The notes under the pieces are model-generated. The model was not told the origin of the DNA. It searched no databases and was given only the letters and a program-made list of their open reading frames with translations. Both the position numbers and the translations under genes were made by a program. From an uncultured Mageeibacillus sp. (GTDB lineage: Bacteria > Bacillota > Clostridia > Saccharofermentanales > DTU023), in NCBI GenBank assembly GCA_964606165.1, contig CAZSFQ010000006.1:3035-67034 (forward strand): DNA of 64,000 bases. Direction: 5' to 3'. Positions 3,035-54,294 of this stretch are shown piece after piece (the stretch's first letter is position 1; every line of letters starts with the position of its first letter).

Positions 3035-4450
3035 ATGGTATTTTCGTCTTTGATCTTCCTGTATGTCTTCCTGCCTATCTGCCTGGTCGCTGCCTGGCTG
3101 ACCAGCCGGGTTCGCACGCAAAATGCCTTTCTGCTCATCGCCTCCTTGTTTTTTTACGCCTGGGGGGAACCTGTCTATGTCATCCTGCTTCTTTTCACGA
3201 CTTTCATCATCTGGCTGTGCGGAATTTTCATGGGACGCTCACGATCGCCAGGTATACGAAGGGGCTGGCTGATCGCGGCCATTGTCCTGGCCCTTGCCAG
3301 TCTCGTCTATTTCAAATACACAGGATTCCTGCTTGAAATCCTCAACGTCCTCCCTTTCTTTCACTTTGATCCCCCCTTGATCTCGCTTCCCATCGGCATC
3401 TCCTTTTATACCTTCCAGGCATTGACCTACATCATCGACCTATACCGGGGTGAAATTAAAATCCAGCGTTCCTACGCCCGCTTTTTGCTCTATGTCTCCT
3501 TGTTCCCCCAACTGATTGCCGGTCCCATTGTCCGTTACGCCGATATTGAGAAGCAGCTTTACCATCGCCGGATTTCACTCGACGGGATGGCAGCGGGAAT
3601 CTGCCGATTTCTCGGAGGACTGGCCAAGAAGGTCCTGATCGCCAACTACGCCAGTGAAATCGTCGAACTCTGCCTTGAATCGGAACACTTCGCCCAGGTC
3701 AGTTCCGCAACGGCCATCCTCGGAATCATTGCCTTTGGTATCCAAATCTATTTTGACTTTTCAGGATACTCCGACATGGCCATTGGCCTGGGTCTCCTGT
3801 TCGGTTTCCGCTTTATGGAGAACTTCAGGTATCCCTACATTGCCTCCACCATCACGGATTTCTGGCGCCGCTGGCACATCTCGCTCAGCACCTTCTTTCG
3901 CGATTACCTCTATATCCCGCTCGGAGGCAATAGAAGTCACCGCTTACGCAATACATTTGTGGTCTGGTTTTTAACAGGACTCTGGCACGGGGCCAATGTC
4001 AACTTCGTTCTATGGGGCCTTTACTACTTTCTGCTTCTGACCCTGGAACGGCATCTCATCCTTCCCCGCCTGGAGAAAATCCCCCGTCTGCTCGGCCACC
4101 TGTGGACCATGCTGGCGGTCCTGGCAGGCTGGAGCCTGTTCTATTTCACGAAAACAGCTGATTTTCTGACTTTCTGGGGCAGAATCGTCTCGCCGGGCCT
4201 TGCCGGCTTTGCCGATCTTGAGGCGAAAATTCTCTGGAAACAACACCTCTTTTTTATCCTGGTGGCGGCAGTCTTCTCGACGCCCCTCCTGCCTTGGATC
4301 CGGCGAAAATTCAAGGAGCCTATCCGGCAGCTGGAAAATTCCCCTGCCGGCGGCGTTCTGCGCACTGCCGGCGTGCTTATACTTCTTTTTGTCTCCACAG
4401 CTTCCCTGGTCGCGTCCAGCTATAATCCTTTTTTGTATTTCCGCTTTTAG
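3035..4450 (+). CDS. MBOAT family membrane-bound O-acyltransferase (AlgI/DltB-like)
   Basis: Polytopic membrane protein with the MBOAT signature FWRRWHISLSTFFRDYLYIPLGGNR. Confidence 0.9.
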   Translation: MVFSSLIFLYVFLPICLVAAWLTSRVRTQNAFLLIASLFFYAWGEPVYVILLLFTTFIIWLCGIFMGRSRSPGIRRGWLIAAIVLALASLVYFKYTGFLLEILNVLPFFHFDPPLISLPIGISFYTFQALTYIIDLYRGEIKIQRSYARFLLYVSLFPQLIAGPIVRYADIEKQLYHRRISLDGMAAGICRFLGGLAKKVLIANYASEIVELCLESEHFAQVSSATAILGIIAFGIQIYFDFSGYSDMAIGLGLLFGFRFMENFRYPYIASTITDFWRRWHISLSTFFRDYLYIPLGGNRSHRLRNTFVVWFLTGLWHGANVNFVLWGLYYFLLLTLERHLILPRLEKIPRLLGHLWTMLAVLAGWSLFYFTKTADFLTFWGRIVSPGLAGFADLEAKILWKQHLFFILVAAVFSTPLLPWIRRKFKEPIRQLENSPAGGVLRTAGVLILLFVSTASLVASSYNPFLYFRF

Positions 4451-17449: not shown

Positions 17450-17716
17450 CTATTCGCGGCCTGTCGCGCGTTTGTAAAGCAGTAAAACCCAGAAGGCGAT
17501 GATGGAGACCAGCAGGGCGATCCCTGTCAAAAGAAAGAAGAGGTTGGTGTTGGTACCCGCGATCAAAGCCGCCAGCGCGACAACGAGGACCACTGACAAA
17601 ACACCGATGAGCAGTTTTCCAAATACGGACGACAGGAAGCGTTTACGGAATTTGAGTTCCTCAGGCGTAAAACCCGACTTCTTTCCTTTACCCGCTGATT
17701 TCTTTTTCACGGCCAT
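17450..17716 (-). CDS. small membrane protein (88 aa, basic N-terminus, two TM helices)
   Basis: Clean ORF between flanking genes with hydrophobic helices. No recognisable family. Confidence 0.5.
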   Translation of the reverse strand: MAVKKKSAGKGKKSGFTPEELKFRKRFLSSVFGKLLIGVLSVVLVVALAALIAGTNTNLFFLLTGIALLVSIIAFWVLLLYKRATGRE

Positions 17717-17784
17717 CCCAGGTCCCCCCTATGCATCTCATGATACTATGACTTTGGCTTTCATAAAAGAAAGAGGGGGACACG

Positions 17785-19608
17785 ATGGACGGGATTACCG
17801 CGCATGCCATGGCACCTGAACTTGACGGGCTTCTGTCAGGATCCCTGGTCGAGCGTATTTCCATGAGCGACAAAAATACCCTTCATCTGGCCCTGTTTAC
17901 GGCCGGTCGGACCAAGTACAACCTGACACTGGATGCCATCGCCAGCCGGCCTTCCCTCATCCTTTCCACCGACCCCCCGCCGCAAGGCTTGAACCCGCCT
18001 CCCTCTTTTGTCATGCTTTTGCGCAAGCACCTGAGGCGGGCCAGGATTACGGCTATCACCACACCGCCCTGGGAGCGCGTTTTTATTCTGGCTTTCAGAT
18101 CCGTCGACGAGCTGGGTGACGGGGTAGAAGGAAGGCTCCTTTTCGAATGCATGCCCCGGACCGCCAATCTGGTGCTGGTCAACCGGGAGGATGTGATCCT
18201 GGGCGCCCTGCGCCATATCGACCACCGGGTCAACCGCGTCAGGGAAACCCTGCCCGCCCACCCCTATCTCCCCCCGCCCGGCCAGAACCGGCCCGGCCCT
18301 GACCAATACGCCAGGCAAGGCGTTGACAGGATCCTGGAGGAACTGGAGGCCCTGCCCTTGACCGGCCGGGCCTTGTCACAGCAGGTCGCCGGCTTTTCGC
18401 CGCTTCTCGGCGAAGAGGCGCTTGCCCGGGCCGGAACCCGGCCCTCTCCGCAACAAGCAGCGGACAGCTTACGCTCCCTTTGCCTGGAAATCGCCGGAGG
18501 GCATTTTTCGCCTGCTGTCTATTTTGACGGCCCCCAAGGCAATCCCATGGCCGTCCACGCGGTGAAGCTGACCCAGCTTCCCTGGTTTGCCCCCTACGAC
18601 TGTATCTACGAGGCAGTTGCCGCCTACAGCCAGGCGGCCGCCGCCATGGACCGCTTCAAGCGGAGACAGCATGCCATTGCAAGAAAAATTGAGGAGCAGA
18701 TCAAGCGCACGCAAAGAAAGAGAGAGCTCCACGAGGCTGATGTGACCACAGGCAAAGAGGCAGCTGACGACCGCCTTATGGGCGAGTTGGTCCTGGCCTG
18801 GATCCATACCATCCCCCCGGGATCCAAGGGAGTCCTCCTGGATAACTACCATGAGCAAGGCAGCCAACTCTATTGCCCCCTGAATCCCCGGCTGACAGCC
18901 GCTGAAAATGCCAAGTGCTATTTTGGAAGCGCGAGGCGCAAGGAGCGAAAACTCGAATCGGCGACAAAACTTCTGCGAAATGACCTCGATGAGCTTGCCT
19001 GGCTTGAATCCTTGCGGGCGGCGGCCGGTTACGCGGAAACGGAAGAGGACCTCTCGGCGCTTGAACATGAATACCTGACCCGCGAAGACCCCGGGAAACA
19101 ACCGGCCCGGCAGCCGCCGCAGGCGGACCGGATGCCCGGCAAGCCGGCATCAAAGAAAAGGCGAAAAGAGCCAGCCAGGCGCCCGCCAGGCAAAAAAGAA
19201 AAACAGGCCGGAGCCAAAGAGGAGCCATTGTTGGCGCCGCCGCGGCTTTTTCGTTCATCCGACGGCTTTTTGATCACCAGCGGCCGCAATAATTTGCAAA
19301 ACGACCGCCTTCTTCGAAAAGCCGGACGCGGCGACCTTTGGTTTCATGCCAAAAATTCTGCAGGATCACATGTCATTCTGTCAGCGGGCGGCCGCGAATT
19401 CACTCCTTCGGCCATCGAGGAGGCAGCCATCATCGCGGCCTGGTATTCGGGCTCGGGAAGAGCGGGCAGCGCCGTCGAAGTCGATTACTGCCCCGTCCGC
19501 CATGTCAAAAAAATTCCGGGCACCAGGCCCGGCAATGTCAGCTACCAGGAATACAAAACACTTTATGTCAGGCCGGCCGATCCCTCGCAATTGCGGGTCA
19601 GCTCCTGA
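17785..19608 (+). CDS. rqcH: ribosome quality control factor RqcH (NFACT/FbpA family)
   Basis: NFACT-N start (MDGITAHAMAPELDGLL...), a coiled-coil middle and an NFACT-R end (WFHAKNSAGSHVIL). It has a K/R/P-rich linker. GAGGGGG RBS. Confidence 0.9.
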   Translation: MDGITAHAMAPELDGLLSGSLVERISMSDKNTLHLALFTAGRTKYNLTLDAIASRPSLILSTDPPPQGLNPPPSFVMLLRKHLRRARITAITTPPWERVFILAFRSVDELGDGVEGRLLFECMPRTANLVLVNREDVILGALRHIDHRVNRVRETLPAHPYLPPPGQNRPGPDQYARQGVDRILEELEALPLTGRALSQQVAGFSPLLGEEALARAGTRPSPQQAADSLRSLCLEIAGGHFSPAVYFDGPQGNPMAVHAVKLTQLPWFAPYDCIYEAVAAYSQAAAAMDRFKRRQHAIARKIEEQIKRTQRKRELHEADVTTGKEAADDRLMGELVLAWIHTIPPGSKGVLLDNYHEQGSQLYCPLNPRLTAAENAKCYFGSARRKERKLESATKLLRNDLDELAWLESLRAAAGYAETEEDLSALEHEYLTREDPGKQPARQPPQADRMPGKPASKKRRKEPARRPPGKKEKQAGAKEEPLLAPPRLFRSSDGFLITSGRNNLQNDRLLRKAGRGDLWFHAKNSAGSHVILSAGGREFTPSAIEEAAIIAAWYSGSGRAGSAVEVDYCPVRHVKKIPGTRPGNVSYQEYKTLYVRPADPSQLRVSS

Positions 19609-22530: not shown

Positions 22531-23532
22531 CTAGCTCTCCATAAAGGCGTGCAGGGCCTTGATATTCGCGACCCAGTCGATGTCGTACATTTCCATGCCC
22601 CGTATATACTTTTTGGCGTCGTAGGTTTCGATCGGCAGCATGAGCTGGTCAAAGGAATAGCTGCTGTATGTACCGACCCCCAGAATATAGTTCATCATCT
22701 CTCCGTCCGTCAGGTTGGTTTTGATCTCCGGCATCAAAGCCTCGACTGTTTCCGTCAATTTGGCCGGATTGCTGCCCTTCATTTTGGTGAAGAGAGCCAT
22801 GATCACTTTGCGCTGCCGCTCCATCCGCTTGAAGTCGGAGTCGAGTTTTCTGATCCTGGAATAATGAAGGGCGGCATTGCCGTTCAGAAGCTGTGGGCCT
22901 GCCTGGAATGAGCCCGCTCCGAGGCTGTTCAAATATTTCGCCTCCGCCGATGTCAGCTCAATGGTCACGCCGCCGACCTTGTCGATGGCCTTGGTGAATC
23001 CTGAAAAATCCGTGGCGATATAACGCGAAACATCAACCCGGAAGTTGCGCTGTACCGTTTTCATCAAGAGCCTGGGACCTCCCCAGGTATGAGCCGCGTT
23101 CAGCATGTAGTTGGAAGAATAATTCTTCTTATAGGCCGGGTCCGGATCATCCGGTATGCTGACGTAGATGGCGCGCATCAGCGAGGTCAGGTGGAAGGAC
23201 CTGGTCTTCTTGTTGATGGTCAGAAGCATCATGGCATCCGAACGGCCATGGGTATTGGGATTCCTGGTATCGGAACCGATGATCAGGATGTTTTCAATCT
23301 GCTTATCCTGCAATACGGGAATCTTCATCCCTTCCTTCATATTGGAGGGGGCGTCGACACCCGACAGATCAGTTTCAATCGCGATGGGATCTTTGATCCG
23401 GTCAAAATCGCGCAGACCGACGATAAAATAGAGATATCCGAAGGCGAAGGCAGCCGTCGCCAGGATCAAGCCTGTGAGCATGCCGGCGACGGATACCAGT
23501 AATTTTTTTCTTTTATGCTCTTCTTTTTCCAT
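22531..23532 (-). CDS. LCP (LytR-CpsA-Psr) family cell-wall glycopolymer transferase
   Basis: N-terminal TM anchor, then NILIIGSDTR...GRSDAMMLLTIN... Confidence 0.85.
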   Translation of the reverse strand: MEKEEHKRKKLLVSVAGMLTGLILATAAFAFGYLYFIVGLRDFDRIKDPIAIETDLSGVDAPSNMKEGMKIPVLQDKQIENILIIGSDTRNPNTHGRSDAMMLLTINKKTRSFHLTSLMRAIYVSIPDDPDPAYKKNYSSNYMLNAAHTWGGPRLLMKTVQRNFRVDVSRYIATDFSGFTKAIDKVGGVTIELTSAEAKYLNSLGAGSFQAGPQLLNGNAALHYSRIRKLDSDFKRMERQRKVIMALFTKMKGSNPAKLTETVEALMPEIKTNLTDGEMMNYILGVGTYSSYSFDQLMLPIETYDAKKYIRGMEMYDIDWVANIKALHAFMES

Positions 23533-23557
23533 AAATTGATTATATCGTACTAACCTG

Positions 23558-23583
23558 AAAAAACGGCAGGATCACTGCCGTTT
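23558..23583 (-). terminator. rho-independent terminator downstream of rpsT
   Basis: On the minus strand: AAACGGCAG tgatc CTGCCGTTT followed by a T-run. Confidence 0.75.
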
Positions 23584-23607
23584 CAAGGATGCTCCCTGTG
23601 ACGAGGC

Positions 23608-23868
23608 TTAAGCGTCGAGCGGCTGAACGCGCGCGATACGGGACTTTCTCCTGGCAGCTGTGTTCTTGGCAATCAGGCCGTCCGCGGCAGCGCGGTCAAT
23701 CTTGGCCTGGGCTGTACGGGCCAGCTCGTCGGCCTCCGGAAGGCCTTGCTCTTTCGCAGCGATCGCCTTCTTGACCAGGGTCCGCAGTTCACTTCTACGG
23801 CTCTTGTTAGCGGCGGCTTTCGCCTGGGACGACCGCACTCGTTTCATGGATGATTTAATATTGGGCAC
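23608..23868 (-). CDS. rpsT: 30S ribosomal protein S20
   Basis: (V)PNIKSSMKRVRSSQAKAAANKSRRSELRT... GTG start at 23868 preceded by AGGAGG. Confidence 0.9.
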   Translation of the reverse strand: MPNIKSSMKRVRSSQAKAAANKSRRSELRTLVKKAIAAKEQGLPEADELARTAQAKIDRAAADGLIAKNTAARRKSRIARVQPLDA

Positions 23869-23912
23869 GCTTGTTTCCTCCTGCGTCACTATCGGTTCAA
23901 TGAACAAGGCGT

Positions 23913-23942
23913 ATTCTAACACGGGCGGCGGCGCCGGCGCAA
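23913..23942 (-). promoter_or_regulatory. rpsT promoter candidate (extended -10)
   Basis: On the minus strand: TTGCGC, 18 nt, then TGTTAGAAT. It starts immediately after the stop codon of the upstream Panacea-domain gene. Confidence 0.45.
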
Positions 23943-23943
23943 G

Positions 23944-24972
23944 TTATGGCGCCGGGACAGCCAGCGAAAGGTCTTTTGCCCAGCAAAAGTCGATTGGTGT
24001 GTTCCCTTTGGCACGCTTGTAAGCCTTTTCCTGGTGAGCCCTGCTGACAAGATCCTTTGTTTTAATTGTTCCCACTTGGCTAAAGACCTGATCCAGGACT
24101 TCAACTTCCGATCGCGCCAGTTCTTTGACCTGGAAATCCGATTGAGTTTTGAACCGGAATCCCAGATTTTCACCGACTGGGGCTATTTCATAATGCACAC
24201 CTTCCAGCTTGACAATGCAATCGTATTTTTCCGGAGCCGGCCCCATGGGCAGCGCACTGTAAACCAGACCGCTGATCGCTCTTCCTTTGTACTTGTAATG
24301 AAGCATATCTGAGTACCAAAGCATTTTCATAAGCCTGACTGTGTACAGGTATTTCGTTTTCTTCGCAAGGTAGTTGATCATTTCAACCACTTTGCTCAAA
24401 TCCAGATCCACCCCGCCCCTGATGGCTTCATCTTGAAATCCCGCATAATGAGCTTCGATCGAGGTGGTCAAATACCAGTTCTCCTTTTTCGAGAAGGCCT
24501 TCATCGCGTTCTCAAGGTACTTCCCGTATGCCCTTTCCGTGATCTTGTGCCTGGATTTTTCCAGTACCTCCATAAACCACTTGGGATCCTCAGCAATTTT
24601 TCTCAAGATGGCGTCATGCGCGACATCTTGTACCTGGTGGTTTTCATAGCGGGTAATGGTTGCTTTCCCCCAGTCAAGCAGGTCGGAAAAATCTTTCTGG
24701 CTGATTCCATATTGCTTTCGAATCCTGATGATGTCGCCCGAGGTCAGCAAAGCTCTCTTCTCCCTGTAGGCATCTTTCATGGCCAGATCGTTGGCCTTGA
24801 TCAGGTCTTCTGTTTCAAGCAGATTGTCGGTATGGGGGCAATACTCGTAAGTTGGCGCAAACTCCACCTCTTCACCTTTAAAAGTTACAGTTTCGGGCAA
24901 ACGGACCCTTTGAACATCATGCTCTTCCATACAGTCGAAGCAAAACTTTCTTACTGTTTCCAGAATCTCCAT
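23944..24972 (-). CDS. fusion of an MqsA/YgiT-like zinc ribbon, an XRE-type HTH and a Panacea (DUF4065/SocA) domain; antitoxin-like
   Basis: N-terminus: CFDC...(28 aa)...YCPH, then LTSGDIIRIRKQYGISQKDFSDLLDWGKATITRYENHQ (HTH). C-terminus: LMKMLWYSDMLHYKYKGRAISGLVYSALPMGPAPEKYD...LVSRAHQEKAYKRA (Panacea-like). G+C is clearly lower than in the flanks. Confidence 0.75.
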   Translation of the reverse strand: MEILETVRKFCFDCMEEHDVQRVRLPETVTFKGEEVEFAPTYEYCPHTDNLLETEDLIKANDLAMKDAYREKRALLTSGDIIRIRKQYGISQKDFSDLLDWGKATITRYENHQVQDVAHDAILRKIAEDPKWFMEVLEKSRHKITERAYGKYLENAMKAFSKKENWYLTTSIEAHYAGFQDEAIRGGVDLDLSKVVEMINYLAKKTKYLYTVRLMKMLWYSDMLHYKYKGRAISGLVYSALPMGPAPEKYDCIVKLEGVHYEIAPVGENLGFRFKTQSDFQVKELARSEVEVLDQVFSQVGTIKTKDLVSRAHQEKAYKRAKGNTPIDFCWAKDLSLAVPAP

Positions 24973-25035
24973 TTTCCCGCCTTTCTCTCACGATCCGTAA
25001 GGAAAAGTACTTTTGCCAAAAGGATACTCAGCAAA

Positions 25036-25096
25036 ATCCTAGCACTTGTGATTGAAATAAGTCAAGATTTTCGGTATCAATTGATACCGAAAATCT
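25036..25096 (-). promoter_or_regulatory. promoter candidate plus 32-bp perfect palindrome (putative operator) upstream of the Panacea-domain gene
   Basis: The palindrome AGATTTTCGGTATCAATTGATACCGAAAATCT spans 25065-25096. On the minus strand it abuts TTGACT (25060-25065), followed by 18 nt and TAGGAT (25036-25041). Confidence 0.5.
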
Positions 25097-25171
25097 GTTG
25101 CGCGCCAGAACCTATCGCGTATTGGTGTAGGTGAATCAAGTTGAGGACAGCCGGGAACAGGCCATCGATTC

Positions 25172-25729
25172 CTACCGATTCCGGTAGTCCTCCGCCAAAA
25201 TCGCGTAGTAACAGGCGTCCGCAAACACATCCGGCTTGTAGATGGCCTGGCGGTGCAGTCCTTCATATTCCATACCGCACTTTTTCATGACATCTCCTGA
25301 GTGGACGTTGGCCGGCTCATGGCAGGACTCAATCCGGTTGGCGCCGACCTCATCAAAGAAGAAACGGATCAGTCCGGCCAGGGCTTCCGACACGTAGCCC
25401 TGATGCCACCAGGGTTTGCCGATACAGTAACCGATGTTAACCATGCGGATGTTCTCACGGCCTTCAACCGAGCCGATGCTGCCGATCAGGGTATTGCCCT
25501 CTTTGAGCTCAATCGCCCAGTTGTAGTAGTTTTTGAAATCGTAGCTGTTCACCCAGGTCCGAAGAATCTCCCTGGTCACTCCAAGATCCGCGTGCGGCTC
25601 CCAGGACAGGTATTTTGTCACTTCGGGATCATTGGCCCAGTTACTGAACATGGCCGGGGCGTCATCGAGAGTGAAACGGCGAAGAACCAGCCTGTCGGTT
25701 TCAAGCCTTACGGTGCCTTTATGTACCAT
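25172..25729 (-). CDS. GNAT family N-acetyltransferase (RimJ/RimL-like)
   Basis: LETDRLVLRRFTLDDAPAMFSNWANDPEVTKYL, and WWHQGYVSEALAGLIRFFFDEVGANRIE. Confidence 0.85.
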   Translation of the reverse strand: MVHKGTVRLETDRLVLRRFTLDDAPAMFSNWANDPEVTKYLSWEPHADLGVTREILRTWVNSYDFKNYYNWAIELKEGNTLIGSIGSVEGRENIRMVNIGYCIGKPWWHQGYVSEALAGLIRFFFDEVGANRIESCHEPANVHSGDVMKKCGMEYEGLHRQAIYKPDVFADACYYAILAEDYRNR

Positions 25730-25832
25730 ATTCCCTTCTCCCTCACCTTTTAATATCTCATGTTATCATTGATTGTTAGCGCATTCGCGGTGACTGACAG
25801 CTTTCAGTCACCCTTTATTATAGGAGCAGAAA

Positions 25833-27548
25833 ATGAGTCGAAAGAAAAAAGAAGAAATAGAAAGCACAAGCAAGAAAAATACTGGACAAAAATTACGTGT
25901 CATTCCGCTCGGCGGCATGCGCGAAATAGGGAAAAACATGACCGTCTTTGAATACGGTGATGACCTGATCGTCATCGACTGCGGCATGGCCTTTCCTGAT
26001 ACCAGGATGCCTGGCATCGATATCATCATCCCGGACTTTCACTACCTTCGGGAGAACCGCGACAAGATTCGCGGGATTCTGATCACGCACGGCCACGAAG
26101 ACCATATCGGGGCCCTGCCCTGGCTTTTAAAGGAATTCGATGTCCCCGTCTACGCGACGCCCATGACCATGAAGCTGATCGAGATCAAACTCGAGAATAC
26201 GCGTCCCAAAGTGGAAAGCAAAAAGCTCCAGGTCGTACGGGCCGGCGATTCACTTTCAATCGGGGCTTTTGGGATTGAGTTTATCCATGTCAACCATTCG
26301 ATCGCGGACGCGGTCTCCATCGCCCTGACGACACCCGTGGGAACCGTCTTTTTTACAGGGGACTTCAAGATCGACTACACACCGACCACGGTGGATCCCA
26401 TCGATCTGGGGAAAATCGCGGAGATCGGCAACCGCGGCGTCCTGGCCCTCATCTCCGAGAGCACCAACGCCGAGCGGCCGGGACACTCCCTGTCGGAAAG
26501 GGAGGTCGGCAAGGCCTTCAAGGATATCTTCTCCGAAGCCGCGGGCCGAATCATAGTAGCCACCTTCTCGTCCAATGTCTTCCGCTTGCAGCAGGTCATC
26601 TCAACAGCCGAGTCATTCGGCCGCAAGGTACTGATCCTGGGGCGGAGCATGCTCAATGTCTTTGAAGCGGCAAACAGCCTGGGCTATCTTTCCTACCAGC
26701 CGTCCACCATCATGGATATCCAAAGCATCGACAGCTTTCCCGCGGAAGAAATCGTCATCCTGGCGACCGGAAGCCAGGGTGAACCCATGTCAGCCCTTTC
26801 GAGGCTGGCCTATTCGGAACACCGCAGCACGGAAATCATGGAAGGCGACACGGTAATCCTGTCGTCCAGCATGATCCCCGGCAACGAAGAGGCCATCTAC
26901 CGGGTCGTCAACGAGCTCTTCATGAAAGGGGCCCAGGTAATCTACGAATCGCTATCGGAAGTCCACGCCTCAGGCCACGCCTGCCAGGATGAGTTGAAGC
27001 AGATCCTGACCCTGACAAAGCCCCGCTATTTTATCCCCTCGCACGGCGAATTCCGCATGCTCTACCGGCACGCGGAGCTGGCCAGCAAGATGGGGATTCC
27101 CAATGAGCGGATTGTGCTTTCGAAAAACGGCGAGATCCTCGAATTTTCGGAAGACGGCAGCCTGAACTTCACCGGCTATACCGAGGGAGCCGGTATCCTG
27201 ATCGACGGGTCGGGCATGGGCGACGTTGACGAGTACGTACTGAACGACCGTCTCCGTCTGGCGGATGAAGGCGTCGTTTCGGTCACCATCGTCATCGATG
27301 CCCAGGCCAACCGCCTCTACGGCGACCCTGTCGTTCAGGCCAAGGGCTTCATCTACGAAAGTGAGATGAAGCACGTCATTGAACTTTGTCAGGAGCGGGT
27401 CAAGGAAATCGCCGGCGAATTGTGGAGCAAGAAAAAACCGCTGGGCGCTCACATGACATCGGATGACATGAAAGACAAGATCCAAAAGACCCTCTTCGAA
27501 CTGACAAGAAGAAGGCCGGTCGTCATGGTGGCTGTCGTCGCCATTTGA
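25833..27548 (+). CDS. rnj: ribonuclease J
   Basis: Beta-CASP metallo-beta-lactamase: ITHGHEDHIGALPW, and SGHACQDELK. Confidence 0.95.
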   Translation: MSRKKKEEIESTSKKNTGQKLRVIPLGGMREIGKNMTVFEYGDDLIVIDCGMAFPDTRMPGIDIIIPDFHYLRENRDKIRGILITHGHEDHIGALPWLLKEFDVPVYATPMTMKLIEIKLENTRPKVESKKLQVVRAGDSLSIGAFGIEFIHVNHSIADAVSIALTTPVGTVFFTGDFKIDYTPTTVDPIDLGKIAEIGNRGVLALISESTNAERPGHSLSEREVGKAFKDIFSEAAGRIIVATFSSNVFRLQQVISTAESFGRKVLILGRSMLNVFEAANSLGYLSYQPSTIMDIQSIDSFPAEEIVILATGSQGEPMSALSRLAYSEHRSTEIMEGDTVILSSSMIPGNEEAIYRVVNELFMKGAQVIYESLSEVHASGHACQDELKQILTLTKPRYFIPSHGEFRMLYRHAELASKMGIPNERIVLSKNGEILEFSEDGSLNFTGYTEGAGILIDGSGMGDVDEYVLNDRLRLADEGVVSVTIVIDAQANRLYGDPVVQAKGFIYESEMKHVIELCQERVKEIAGELWSKKKPLGAHMTSDDMKDKIQKTLFELTRRRPVVMVAVVAI

Positions 27549-53437: not shown

Positions 53438-53698
53438 TCAGGGCGTGGCAGGTTCCATGTAACCTCTCAATTCGCAGATGGCGTTTTCGCCGTCGGTGCC
53501 GTCAACTGAAATTTCCAGATGATCACCATCCGAGATCCCCAGCGACAATACTCCCAGCAAACTTTTCGCGTTGGCACGCCGTCCGCCCTTACCGATGTAA
53601 ATGCTGGCACTGTAGCCGGAAGAAATCTGAATCAGCATGGCTATTGCTTTCATCAAAGATTCTTCTTTACATCGAAAGATGACATCTTCTTTCATCAT
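53438..53698 (-). CDS. HPr-family protein lacking the His15 phosphorylation site (Ser46 region retained)
   Basis: RRANAKSLLGVLSLGISDGDHLEISVDGTDGENA aligns with the HPr Ser46 region. Where HPr has GIHARPA this protein has SLMKAIA. ATG at 53698 with a GGAGGA RBS. Confidence 0.7.
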   Translation of the reverse strand: MMKEDVIFRCKEESLMKAIAMLIQISSGYSASIYIGKGGRRANAKSLLGVLSLGISDGDHLEISVDGTDGENAICELRGYMEPATP

Positions 53699-53751
53699 GG
53701 CGATCCTCCGCAAGACGTGTCGGTCACGGTCCCTCTAGTCGGGTACTTAGA

Positions 53752-53781
53752 ATTGTATGAACTAAGTATGACAAATGTCAA
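53752..53781 (-). promoter_or_regulatory. promoter candidate for the HPr-like gene
   Basis: On the minus strand: TTGACA (53776-53781), 18 nt, then TACAAT (53752-53757). Confidence 0.55.
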
Positions 53782-53826
53782 CCATAGTTTGACCAGCATG
53801 CAACCAATCCAAGCCGCATTTTTTGT

Positions 53827-54294
53827 TCATTCCTCTAAATCCCCCGAAAGCCGGCCAGCCATGAGAATCGCCGCCTCACCTGTGTCTGCGTAGTAGCCGC
53901 GGCGTTTCCCGACCTCGACAAAGCCGCATGATTCATAAAGATGGCGGGCAGCCAGGTTGCCCTCCCTCACCTCAAGAATCCAGGTGTGGCAGCCCCGCCT
54001 GACTGCCTCTTCCCTCAATCCATCCATTAAAAGATGGCCCAGTCCCCTGTTTCTGCGTTTGGGCGTAACCGCGATGTTGAGAATTTCGAACTCACCGGAT
54101 AAAAACCTGCCTGCCGCAAAACCGGCCGGCGCCCCTGGCATGTCCTGGCGGCACACAAGAATCAGGATCGCCTCCCTGCCCGTGATGCAATCCCCCAAGG
54201 CCTCTTGAGGCCATGGGATGGCGTGGGACGCCCGATCGATCCTCACAATCGATTCGAGGTCGGACAAGGCCGCCTTACGTACCTTCCACTTCAT
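53827..54294 (-). CDS. rimI: ribosomal-protein-alanine N-acetyltransferase RimI
   Basis: GNAT fold (RRNRGLGHLLM) in the conserved tsaE-tsaB-rimI context. I chose the ATG at 54294 (MKWKVRKA...). Confidence 0.8.
   Translation of the reverse strand: MKWKVRKAALSDLESIVRIDRASHAIPWPQEALGDCITGREAILILVCRQDMPGAPAGFAAGRFLSGEFEILNIAVTPKRRNRGLGHLLMDGLREEAVRRGCHTWILEVREGNLAARHLYESCGFVEVGKRRGYYADTGEAAILMAGRLSGDLEE

What the first reader, a model, noticed from the sequence alone, without database searches (positions are those of the whole stretch)
23913..25171. Low-GC single-gene islet: a solitary zinc-ribbon-HTH-Panacea (DUF4065) antitoxin-type protein with no visible toxin
The 342-aa ORF (23944..24972) fuses three parts. 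The first is an MqsA/YgiT-like zinc ribbon (CFDC...YCPH). The second is an XRE-type HTH. The third is a C-terminal Panacea/SocA domain, described as the neutralising module of many unrelated type II toxin-antitoxin pairs. Its composition departs from the surroundings. Hand counts of four 60-nt lines inside it gave 22, 30, 31 and 25 G+C, against 37 of 60 in a flanking rpsT line, which suggests horizontal acquisition. It is wedged between a GNAT gene and the rpsT promoter, which begins right at its stop codon. No toxin-sized ORF lies in the 199-nt upstream gap or the 75-nt downstream gap. It could be an orphan antitoxin or anti-phage decoy, a regulator that has lost its toxin, a trans-acting partner of a toxin elsewhere, or a partner of the upstream GNAT. 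I consider the GNAT option less likely (see the rejected list).
Basis: partly seen in the sequence, partly recalled or inferred. Interest (0 to 1): 0.65.

Follow-up and report, generated by a model that had tools for sequence, protein, structure and literature searches.

The report
Antitoxin gene that lost its toxin
This lone gene is the surviving antitoxin half of a known two-gene toxin-antitoxin operon whose toxin gene was cut out by a ~430-bp deletion, an ordinary stage of toxin-antitoxin decay that is unusually well documented here.

Summary
ORF 23944-24972 (minus strand, 342 aa) is a zinc-binding-domain/HTH/Panacea protein. It has the lowest GC of 57 gene proxies (ORFs of 100 aa or more) in the window, and no toxin gene lies beside it.

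It is not an oddity of unknown origin. In 122 of 147 assessable related loci, a ~150-aa MqsR-like gene sits immediately upstream on the same strand, preceded by a conserved palindrome (TATCA-N2-TGATA). The window keeps that palindrome, the promoter, the last 16 codons and stop of the toxin gene, the ribosome-binding site and the antitoxin. About 430 bp of toxin gene are missing.

Relatives form a decay series at this one site. L090 is empty. The window and L087 carry an orphan antitoxin. L085 has deleted the antitoxin too and keeps only its last ~42 nt.

The architecture is already published and tested (Bacillus fungorum MqsR:PanA, Ernits 2023), and there the zinc domain, not Panacea, neutralises the toxin. 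The gene is foreign in origin but an old resident: its codon choice is host-typical and its GC3 lies far above the family mean.

I score it as a new member of a known kind, of low to moderate interest. Whether selection keeps the orphan remains open.

The parts
23944..24972 (-). Orphan antitoxin gene, 342 aa, with zinc-binding domain, HTH and Panacea (MqsA-family / PanA type)
   Evidence: ORF. TIGR03830 100 bits, PF13274 65 bits, PF01381 26 bits. More than 746 full-length homologues. dN/dS 0.114 against the 78%-identical copy in L084.
24763..24972 (-). Zinc-binding domain, about aa 1-70. Ligands C11, C14, H18 and C45. By analogy with the published system, this is the toxin-neutralising part.
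   Evidence: C11, C14, H18 and C45 are invariant in 55 aligned sequences, and all 9 ZBD family-invariant residues are kept. The neutralising role comes from PMC10440598 and is an inference for this protein.
24640..24729 (-). Helix-turn-helix (Pfam HTH_3, aa 82-111), the presumed operator-binding and dimerising part
   Evidence: It is the slowest-evolving domain (dN/dS 0.033). Its identity ratio is 1.32 in the orphan clade.
24016..24333 (-). Panacea / SocA domain (PF13274, aa 214-319)
   Evidence: All 6 substitutions at family-invariant positions fall in aa 213-321. It is the relatively fastest-evolving domain in the orphan clade.
24973..24987 (-). Spacer with ribosome-binding site (GAGAAAGGCGGGAAA) between the relic's stop codon and the antitoxin ATG
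   Evidence: Sequence. It aligns with the toxin-stop-to-antitoxin-start spacer of intact operons. The last 34 nt before the ATG (24973-25006, which include this spacer) match L084 at 32 of 34 positions.
24988..25038 (-). Relic of the deleted toxin gene: its last 16 codons plus the stop (DFAEYPFGKSTFPYGS*), with no start codon left
   Evidence: Best six-frame hit of the partner profile in the whole 64-kb window. It matches the partner C-terminus FAEIPFKEEDFPY at 8 of 13 residues. A score this high arose in 7 of 5000 random gaps. DNA alignment to L004, L010 and L026.
25036..25065 (-). Promoter-like site: -35 TTGACT (25065-25060), 18-nt spacer, TG-extended -10 TAGGAT (25041-25036). The deletion junction lies at or just after the -10.
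   Evidence: Promoter scan. It is homologous position by position to the TTGAC-17-TATAAT of intact operons.
25065..25096 (.). Perfect 32-bp palindrome AGATTTTCGGTATCAATTGATACCGAAAATCT, with core TATCAATTGATA at 25075-25086. This is the family's presumed operator.
   Evidence: The core motif occurs 83 times in 1.15 Mb of family loci, 81 of them within 1 kb upstream of the antitoxin, and once in the window. L004 has the identical 26-nt version.
23869..23943 (-). Right boundary of the insert: the resident rpsT promoter and leader (CTTGCGCC...TGTTAGAAT...GGAGGAAACAAGCGTG). This is not part of the element.
   Evidence: The block is conserved in all five lineages, including the empty sites L085 and L090.

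Best explanation
The gene is the antitoxin half of a two-gene type II toxin-antitoxin operon. The operon encodes an MqsR-like toxin first and a ZBD-HTH-Panacea 'PanA' antitoxin second.

The operon inserted between the GNAT gene and the rpsT promoter in an ancestor of this lineage. A later deletion of about 430 bp removed the toxin gene, from just after the promoter's -10 box to its 16th-last codon. What remains is operator, promoter, an untranslatable toxin tail that now serves as 5' leader, the ribosome-binding site, and an intact antitoxin gene.

Shown here: the origin of the gene, the deletion, and the decay series in relatives.

Inferred: the protein is still made from its own promoter. 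It binds the TATCA-N2-TGATA palindrome as an HTH-mediated dimer and represses its own transcription. With no toxin in cis it has no neutralising job, so it is dispensable and on the usual path to loss. In a toxin-antitoxin pair the toxin must be lost first, because losing the antitoxin first would be lethal.
For: 1. Conserved partner. In 59 of the first 80 related genome loci, one ~140-170-aa family sits immediately upstream on the same strand, with gaps of about -38 to +29 nt (one outlier at +81). Pooled over 160 loci, 122 of 147 assessable loci have it intact.

2. Partner identity. MqsR_toxin is the only Pfam family hit consistently: 8 of 22 diverse members, best E = 1.8e-4. hhalign matches the E. 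coli MqsR C-terminal strands. The partner profile hits the upstream gene of a B. cereus plasmid homologue at E = 3e-10. Kurata 2022 lists MqsR-like as the commonest recognisable partner of Panacea antitoxins. Ernits 2023 validated a ZBD-HTH-Panacea antitoxin paired with MqsR.

3. Deletion scar. The best partner-profile hit in the whole window lies directly upstream of the ATG and matches the toxin's C-terminus. Only 7 of 5000 random gaps reach that score. The DNA alignment shows homology through operator, -35 and -10, then a ~430-nt gap, then the last ~15 codons, stop, RBS and ATG.

4. Operator. The motif is highly specific to the position upstream of the antitoxin (81 of 83 occurrences). It lies 114 nt from the ATG here, against about 430-520 nt in intact operons.

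5. Decay series at one site. L090/L091 are empty. L087 has operator, promoter and antitoxin but no toxin. L085 keeps only the last ~42 nt of the antitoxin gene.

6. Recurrence. In 25 of 147 family loci the toxin is degraded or absent while the antitoxin survives. L026 also keeps only the toxin's last ~22 codons.

7. Not an artefact. Four independent assemblies show the same structure.
Against: - The timing of the toxin loss is unknown. The L084 contig stops 34 nt upstream of its ATG, so the low dN/dS of 0.114 at dS of about 1 may reflect selection while a toxin was still present, or selection on the orphan itself. The second case would argue against 'dispensable'.
- All ZBD and HTH invariant residues are kept, and two orphan lineages both keep a perfect operator dyad and a promoter. 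This is more than simple neutral decay predicts.
- The partner's assignment as MqsR-like stays below Pfam's threshold. The AlphaFold model is poor (pLDDT 63) and gives no significant fold match.
- The relic alone scores only 4-8 bits. Its weight comes from its position and the DNA alignment.
- Only 64 kb of the genome could be searched for a toxin elsewhere.
- Expression, DNA binding and autoregulation are all untested.
Confidence: 0.8

Rival explanations
1. The origin is the same, but the orphan is now kept by selection. It would act as an anti-addiction or immunity factor, with its zinc-binding domain neutralising MqsR-like toxins brought in by phages or plasmids that carry complete modules. 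Alternatively it would act as a repurposed transcription factor.
For: - Purifying selection is of ordinary strength in all domains: dN/dS 0.114 overall, ZBD 0.095, HTH 0.033.
- All ZBD and HTH invariants are retained.
- Operator dyad and promoter are retained in two orphan lineages separated by saturated synonymous divergence.
- Complete operator-toxin-antitoxin modules occur in three uncultured gut-phage records.
- The same digester metagenome (LSQX01) holds several other family members.
- Orphan antitoxins are common, and anti-addiction is a published proposal for them (PMC7192599).
Against: - A lineage only dS of about 0.4 away (L085) has deleted the gene.
- The Panacea domain carries 6 changes at near-invariant positions, against a mean of 1.1 in toxin-paired members, and evolves relatively fast in the orphan clade.
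- The -10 box has drifted from TATAAT to TAGGAT.
- The timing of the toxin loss is unknown, so the selection seen may predate it.
- Cross-neutralisation across 40-60% identity is untested.
- The strict operator motif has no second site in the 64-kb window.
Confidence: 0.2
2. The protein is the working antitoxin of a toxin encoded elsewhere in the genome (a split, trans-acting pair).
For: The antitoxin is intact and conserved. Only 64 kb of the genome could be examined.
Against: - No partner-family match exists anywhere in the window apart from the relic.
- The family is overwhelmingly organised as an adjacent, toxin-first pair.
- The scar shows that the cognate toxin was here and was deleted.
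- A close relative has lost the antitoxin, which would be lethal if an active cognate toxin were present.
Confidence: 0.06
3. The upstream GNAT acetyltransferase is the toxin and this protein is its antitoxin.
For: The two genes are adjacent on the same strand. GNAT toxins exist in other TA families (PMC9177977, listed).
Against: - The GNAT is an Acetyltransf_3 / RimJ-RimL-like protein.
- Its composition is host-like, with GC3 of 0.70.
- It is present at the same place in relatives that lack the antitoxin (L085, L090/L091).
- The operon's own operator and promoter separate it from the antitoxin.
- No GNAT is a conserved neighbour in the family.
Confidence: 0.02
4. The gene never had a toxin partner. 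It is a stand-alone regulator, and the apparent relic is a chance match or an assembly artefact.
For: The relic's profile score is low, at 4-8 bits.
Against: - 83% of assessable family loci have the partner.
- The relic is the top hit in the window and sits at exactly the expected place and frame, with a stop 15 nt before the ATG.
- The DNA alignment is continuous on both sides of a single gap.
- Four independent assemblies agree.
Confidence: 0.02

Closest known systems
Bacillus fungorum MqsR(D2):PanA toxin-antitoxin system (WP_099686063.1 / WP_099686064.1; Ernits et al. 2023, PMC10440598)
   Same: The antitoxin architecture is the same (zinc-binding domain, HTH, C-terminal Panacea) and the size is similar (349 against 342 aa). 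The gene order in the window's family is also toxin first. The partner profile of the window's family hits the upstream gene of a B. cereus plasmid homologue at E = 3e-10.
   Different: The window copy has no toxin gene. Sequence identity to Bacillus cereus-group homologues is only about 22-23%. I could not obtain the B. fungorum sequences, so whether it belongs to the same subfamily is untested. That system was studied as a complete pair, not as an orphan.
Escherichia coli MqsR/MqsA (YgiU/YgiT)
   Same: The MqsA-family N-terminal half matches above the NCBIfam cutoff (TIGR03830) and weakly matches the MqsA structures 3GN5 and 2KZ8. The operon is toxin first and has a palindromic operator upstream of it. 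From my own knowledge of the MqsA literature, MqsA binds a palindrome in its own promoter.
   Different: MqsA is 131 aa and has no Panacea domain. Its zinc site is CxxC...CxxC, whereas here it is C-x2-C-x3-H...C. The operator sequence differs: TATCA-N2-TGATA here, ACCT-N-AGGT in E. coli from memory. The partner is about 150 aa against 98 aa and is only distantly MqsR-like.
PanA/PanT (Panacea-containing antitoxins; Kurata et al. 2022, PMC8832971)
   Same: It contains the Panacea domain PF13274 above threshold. The paper reports MqsR-like as the commonest recognisable PanT domain (n = 90) and an N-terminal HTH in 343 PanAs.
   Different: In stand-alone PanAs the Panacea domain neutralises the toxin directly. 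In the ZBD-containing type it does not. Here there is no PanT at all.
Orphan antitoxins from degraded TA loci (for example Horesh et al. 2020, Klebsiella; PMC7192599)
   Same: It is an antitoxin left without a toxin, in the original TA context, with a remnant of the toxin side.
   Different: Here the deletion breakpoints, the retained operator and promoter, and a multi-lineage decay series at one chromosomal site are all resolved. The antitoxin is also a large three-domain protein rather than a 50-150-aa one.

Membership tests
MqsA-family antitoxin (NCBIfam TIGR03830; Pfam PF15731) | Profile match above the curated cutoff, covering the zinc ribbon plus the HTH | tested here: met
   TIGR03830 scores 100 bits against a cutoff of 61.8 over aa 11-136. 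Pfam PF15731 scores only 25.4 against a cutoff of 30.
MqsA-family antitoxin (NCBIfam TIGR03830; Pfam PF15731) | Four conserved zinc ligands in the N-terminal domain | tested here: met
   C11, C14, H18 and C45 are invariant in 55 aligned members, including the window. The spacing is C-x2-C-x3-H...C, not the CxxC...CxxC of E. coli MqsA. Metal binding itself was not tested.
MqsA-family antitoxin (NCBIfam TIGR03830; Pfam PF15731) | A cognate MqsR-type toxin gene immediately upstream | tested here: not met
   Only a 16-codon relic remains in the window. The feature is met in 122 of 147 assessable family loci.
PanA (Panacea-domain antitoxin, PF13274) | Panacea/SocA domain above the Pfam gathering score | tested here: met
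   65.4 bits against a cutoff of 25.7, aa 214-319, covering the full profile 1-113.
PanA (Panacea-domain antitoxin, PF13274) | Neutralises an adjacent PanT toxin | not testable with these tools
   No adjacent toxin is present. In the published ZBD-HTH-Panacea system the ZBD does the neutralising, not Panacea.
Type II toxin-antitoxin system (functional two-gene module) | Two adjacent co-transcribed genes encoding a toxin and an antitoxin | tested here: not met
   The toxin ORF is deleted. The relic has no start codon. The locus is a remnant, not a TA system.
MqsR toxin family (PF15723), for the family's upstream partner | Profile match above the Pfam gathering score | tested here: not met
   It is the most consistent family (8 of 22 members, best E = 1.8e-4), but always below the 26.2-bit cutoff. 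hhalign against E. coli MqsR gives probability 50% and E = 1.7e-4 over 27 C-terminal columns.
MqsR toxin family (PF15723), for the family's upstream partner | RelE/MqsR-like fold | tested here: inconclusive
GNAT-toxin TA systems (TacT/AtaT type with DUF1778 antitoxin), for the upstream GNAT | GNAT toxin genetically linked to its antitoxin across relatives | tested here: not met
   The GNAT is present without the antitoxin in L085 and L090/L091. It is Acetyltransf_3 / RimJ-like. No DUF1778 domain is present.
Known anti-phage defence systems (PADLOC models) | Match to a defence-system protein model | tested here: not met
   Only chance-level hits, at E >= 0.011.

The most novel reading that the evidence does not exclude
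The orphan is not debris. It would be a domesticated three-domain protein kept under selection after its toxin was lost. Its zinc-binding domain would disarm MqsR-like toxins of incoming phages or plasmids that carry the complete module. Its Panacea domain, proposed in the literature to be a sensor, would be free to evolve a new input. Its retained operator and promoter would keep it autoregulated right next to the rpsT promoter. Repeated independent toxin deletions that precisely spare operator, promoter and antitoxin (the window, L087, L040/L042, L026) would then be selected outcomes rather than accidents.
Probability: 0.15. Interest if true: 0.55.

Novelty: new member of a known kind. Interest (0 to 1): 0.27.

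Why it matters
On its own this is an ordinary event, a toxin-antitoxin locus caught midway through decay, and the protein architecture is already published and tested.

Its value is as a clean worked example. One chromosomal site shows four states: the empty state, the orphan-antitoxin state in two or three lineages, and the fully deleted state. The breakpoints are resolved to the base, and the deletion fuses the operon's own promoter directly to the antitoxin.

The analysis also yields three reusable by-products:
- A specific operator motif (TATCA-N2-TGATA) for a family of ZBD-HTH-Panacea antitoxins with hundreds of members (more than 746 protein hits).
- The recognition that about 1000 database proteins labelled 'hypothetical', with no Pfam domain, are this family's MqsR-like partner.
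- A measured rate of toxin loss with antitoxin survival (25 of 147 loci).

If the orphan proved to be under selection, it would be a natural test case for the anti-addiction idea and for the proposed sensory role of Panacea.

Tried and rejected
- Profile search of the partner alignment against PDB sequences: only a chance hit.
- PADLOC scan: nothing. PHROGs scan of the partner: only an unannotated family, in 3 of 22 members.
- Rfam scan of 23400-25900 at a permissive threshold: two chance-level hits inside the ORF and none in the gaps.
- Small ORFs in the 199-nt gap: only 20-27-aa overlapping ORFs, a 75-aa ORF overlapping the GNAT 3' end, and a 233-aa antisense shadow ORF. None matches the partner.
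- Metagenome scan for more close relatives with upstream sequence, to time the deletion: it found only the same species (L092, 99%) and members at 59% identity or less. The 78% lineage (L084) remains cut 34 nt upstream of its ATG.
- Toxin relic in L087: none detected. Whether L087 and the window share one deletion or had two could not be decided.
- Imperfect 17-nt direct repeat flanking the islet (23955-23971 and 25145-25161, 13 of 17 matching). I considered it as a target-site duplication or as the substrate of the L085 deletion. I rejected the second idea because L085 keeps about 10 nt more of the antitoxin gene than that model predicts. The first idea stays unsupported.
- Leaderless toxin mRNA. 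The -10 box lies 2-4 nt from the predicted start codon, or overlaps it, in the nearest clade, but the spacing is inconsistent between loci. Neither the start site nor the start codon could be settled.
- Tying the family to the B. fungorum proteins directly: only the accession numbers were available, not the sequences.
Full report
**1. The observation.** Pfam gives SocA_Panacea at aa 214-319 (65.4 bits, cutoff 25.7) and HTH_3 at aa 82-111, plus a sub-threshold MqsA_antitoxin match at aa 11-117. NCBIfam TIGR03830, the MqsA family, matches aa 11-136 at 100 bits against a cutoff of 61.8. The flanking genes, also on the minus strand, are a GNAT (Acetyltransf_3, RimJ-like) at 25172..25729 and rpsT at 23608..23868, followed by an LCP/LytR-family gene and ruvC, ruvA and ruvB. 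The gaps of 199 nt and 75 nt are as stated. Neither gap holds a toxin-sized ORF or any Rfam RNA. The ORF has the lowest GC of 57 gene proxies (ORFs of 100 aa or more) in the window: 0.476 against a mean of 0.568, z = -2.9.

**2. The family and its missing partner.** The protein belongs to a large family with conserved full length. There are more than 746 database proteins of about 338 aa, spread across Bacillota. Sources already name them 'type II TA system antitoxin MqsA family protein', 'DUF4065 domain-containing protein' or 'zinc finger/HTH YgiT family protein'. I fetched 80 genomic loci and clustered their neighbouring ORFs. One family of about 140-170 aa sits immediately upstream on the same strand in 59 of the 80, with gaps of about -38 to +29 nt (one outlier at +81). 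After adding 80 metagenomic loci, 122 of 147 assessable loci have this partner intact, 16 have it degraded and 9 lack it. That is the layout of a two-gene operon with the toxin first, and the window lacks the first gene.

**3. What the partner is.** The partner family has more than 983 database members. All are labelled 'hypothetical protein' and none has a Pfam domain on record. MqsR_toxin (PF15723) is the only Pfam family hit consistently, by 8 of 22 diverse members with best E = 1.8e-4, but always below Pfam's cutoff. A PDB profile search and a fold search with a mediocre AlphaFold model (pLDDT 63) gave no answer. The literature fills the gap. Kurata et al. 2022 found MqsR-like domains to be the commonest recognisable toxin paired with Panacea antitoxins, and found an N-terminal HTH in 343 PanAs (PMC8832971). 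Ernits et al. 2023 dissected Bacillus fungorum MqsR:PanA, whose antitoxin is ZBD-HTH-Panacea. In that system the ZBD or ZBD-HTH alone neutralises the toxin, Panacea or HTH-Panacea alone does not, the HTH is predicted by AlphaFold2 to mediate homodimerisation, and Panacea is hypothesised to be a sensor (PMC10440598). A B. cereus plasmid homologue of the window protein has the same layout. Its upstream 143-aa 'hypothetical protein' matches my partner profile at E = 3e-10 and has Tyr at residue 97, the position mutated in the B. fungorum toxin. I could not obtain the B. fungorum sequences themselves. I therefore call the partner a distant MqsR-like toxin, with its toxicity inferred from the literature.

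**4. The scar.** I searched the partner profile against all six reading frames of the 64-kb window. The best hit lies at 25038..24991 on the minus strand, directly upstream of the antitoxin ATG. It matches the partner's extreme C-terminus: the window reads FAEYPFGKSTFPY against FAEIPFKEEDFPY, 8 of 13 identical. The frame is open for only 16 codons (DFAEYPFGKSTFPYGS*), has no start codon, and ends 15 nt before the ATG. That spacing is typical of intact pairs. Only 7 of 5000 random 199-nt sequences reach this score anywhere. A DNA alignment with intact operons (L004, L010) is continuous through the palindrome, the -35 (TTGAC) and the spacer to the -10. It then shows a single gap of about 430 nt covering the toxin gene. 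It resumes at the toxin's last ~15 codons, stop, ribosome-binding site and antitoxin start. The window's TAGGAT corresponds position by position to the TATAAT of intact operons, so the deletion begins right after the -10 box.

**5. The operator.** The gap contains a perfect 32-bp palindrome at 25065-25096 that abuts the -35. Its core, TATCA-N2-TGATA (usually GGTATCAATTGATACC), is a family feature. It occurs 83 times in 1.15 Mb of family loci, and 81 of those are within 1 kb upstream of the antitoxin. It typically sits 430-520 nt before the antitoxin start, which is just upstream of the toxin gene. L004 carries the identical 26-nt version. In the window the motif occurs once, 114 nt before the ATG. 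That it is the binding site of the HTH domain is an inference. It rests on the motif's position, its dyad symmetry and its specificity, and on analogy with MqsA, which from my own knowledge binds a palindrome in its own promoter.

**6. History at this locus.** I used homologues of the LCP/LytR neighbour as a graded series of relatives. The gene order RelA, RNase J, GNAT, [X], rpsT, LytR, RuvC, RuvA is conserved, but X varies.
- L090/L091 (LytR 76% identical): GNAT and rpsT are 86 nt apart with no trace of the element. This is a true empty site.
- L087 (85%): X is a 342-aa antitoxin 57% identical to the window's. It has the operator 80 nt upstream and a TTGTCT-17-TAAAAT promoter, but no toxin and no detectable relic.
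- L084: a copy 78% identical also sits directly upstream of rpsT. Its 34 nt before the ATG match the window's relic tail at 32 of 34 positions.
- L085 (90%): X is gone, but the GNAT-rpsT gap still aligns with the last ~42 nt of the antitoxin gene.

Substitutions shared at otherwise invariant positions (A245P, I308L, M312A/S) mark the window, L084 and L087 copies as one clade. The simplest history is one insertion between the GNAT 3' end and the rpsT -35 (CTTGCGCC), followed by toxin loss, and in one lineage by loss of the antitoxin as well. Toxin loss with antitoxin survival recurs elsewhere in the family. L040/L042 have the operator about 70-80 nt from the ATG. L026, a complete genome, keeps only the last ~22 toxin codons. 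Several other loci have internal deletions or frameshifts. Four independent assemblies of the window's species show the same structure, so it is not an assembly artefact.

**7. Composition and age.** The low GC is real, but it does not mean a recent arrival. The family's genes average GC 0.359 and GC3 0.326. The window's copy has GC3 0.566, near the top of the family range and most of the way to the host's ~0.70. Its GC2 (0.335) stays family-like. Its synonymous codon choice is host-typical, at rank 28 of 57. The insert is shared by lineages whose neighbouring genes differ by dS of about 0.6-1.4. The gene is foreign in origin, long resident, and largely ameliorated.

**8. Is the orphan still doing something?** Between the window and L084 the antitoxin has dN/dS of 0.114 at dS of about 1.0 (ZBD 0.095, HTH 0.033, linker 0.137, Panacea 0.181). 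This is comparable to its neighbours at 0.04-0.11, although its amino-acid sequence changes 3-4 times faster. The window keeps 58 of 64 positions that are at least 95% conserved among toxin-paired members. All six changes lie in the Panacea region, against a mean of 1.1 changes in paired members. Compared with toxin-paired pairs at equal overall divergence, the orphan clade's HTH is unusually conserved (ratio 1.32). Its Panacea falls below the 5th percentile (0.84 against 0.89), and its ZBD is within range. Both orphan lineages keep a perfect operator dyad and a promoter. Against this, L085 shows that the gene can be lost, and the time of the toxin deletion is unknown because L084's upstream sequence is missing. 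I therefore commit to a remnant that probably still autoregulates and is dispensable. I give about 0.2 to continued selection, for example as an anti-addiction factor. Complete modules do occur in three uncultured gut-phage records, and anti-addiction is a published proposal for orphan antitoxins (PMC7192599).

**9. Rejected alternatives.** The GNAT is not the partner. It is RimJ-like, has host-like composition, is present in relatives without the antitoxin, and is separated from the antitoxin by the operon's own operator and promoter. A toxin elsewhere cannot be excluded beyond the 64 kb searched, but the scar shows that the cognate toxin was here. PADLOC recognises no defence system.

**10. 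Verdict.** This is a toxin-deleted remnant of a known, experimentally characterised kind of toxin-antitoxin system (MqsR-like toxin with a ZBD-HTH-Panacea antitoxin). It is a new member of a known kind, and interest is low to moderate. The useful extras are the base-resolved decay series at one locus, a specific operator motif for the family, and the recognition of about 1000 unannotated proteins as the family's MqsR-like partner.

Noticed in passing
window 25065-25096; L087 about 3481-3520; family loci generally: The operator's perfect dyad often extends well beyond the 8-nt conserved half-site. Among 33 distinct operators the mean extension is 4.4 symmetric pairs beyond the 5-nt core. The outer positions vary (A or T) yet stay symmetric. 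Two of the three longest arms belong to orphan copies (L087 with 19, the window with 15-16). The promoter/terminator scan also flags the window's palindrome as terminator-like for the upstream GNAT gene. In strain L092 the outer left arm is altered while the core is kept. The palindrome may double as an operator and a hairpin insulator.
   Followed up: partly
L004, L010, L011, L033, L103 and other loci of the 48-58% clade, 44-56 nt after the operator core: In intact operons of the clade nearest the window, a near-consensus TTGAC-17-TATAAT promoter has its -10 only 2-4 nt upstream of the partner's predicted start codon, or overlapping it. In the Lachnospiraceae clade the operator instead lies about 15 nt before a GGAGGTG ribosome-binding site, with no obvious ATG. 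Either the toxin mRNA is leaderless or the true start codon or promoter differs from the prediction.
   Followed up: partly
window 23608-23868 compared with L081 1565-1825: Between the window and the same-species contig L081, rpsT carries 9 differences in 261 nt (8 synonymous). The flanking antitoxin, LytR and RuvC genes carry 2-6 differences in 500-1000 nt each. This may be a small recombination patch over rpsT.
   Followed up: no
window 23955-23971 and 25145-25161: An imperfect 17-nt direct repeat (13 of 17 identical) brackets the inserted element. One copy lies just after the GNAT stop and the other just inside the antitoxin's 3' end. The clade's antitoxin is 4-5 residues longer at the C-terminus than most family members. 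This may be a degraded target-site duplication or may be chance.
   Followed up: partly
proteins P0121-P0240 and about 860 more: The upstream partner family has more than 983 members in the protein database. Every one is labelled 'hypothetical protein' and none has a Pfam domain on record, although it is the conserved, probably MqsR-like, partner of an annotated antitoxin family.
   Followed up: partly
L172 (MT835488.1), L173 (MT837647.1), L174 (MT835652.1): Three unannotated 'Bacteriophage sp.' records from human faecal samples carry the complete module, with operator, intact partner and antitoxin (33-43% identity to the window protein). The records are marked UNVERIFIED, so their phage origin is itself uncertain.
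   Followed up: partly
window 53519-53893 (+) and 17499-17819 (+): Two other short ORFs have the lowest GC3 (0.50 and 0.56) and the poorest host-like codon choice in the window. They may be other foreign genes, or not genes at all.
   Followed up: no
L176 (Clostridium estertheticum plasmid pCF008-B) 1489-2499: A plasmid-borne MqsA-family/Panacea homologue (26% identity) has no gene annotated in the 586 nt upstream. This may be another orphan, or an unannotated partner, since the plasmid gene table is incomplete.
   Followed up: no
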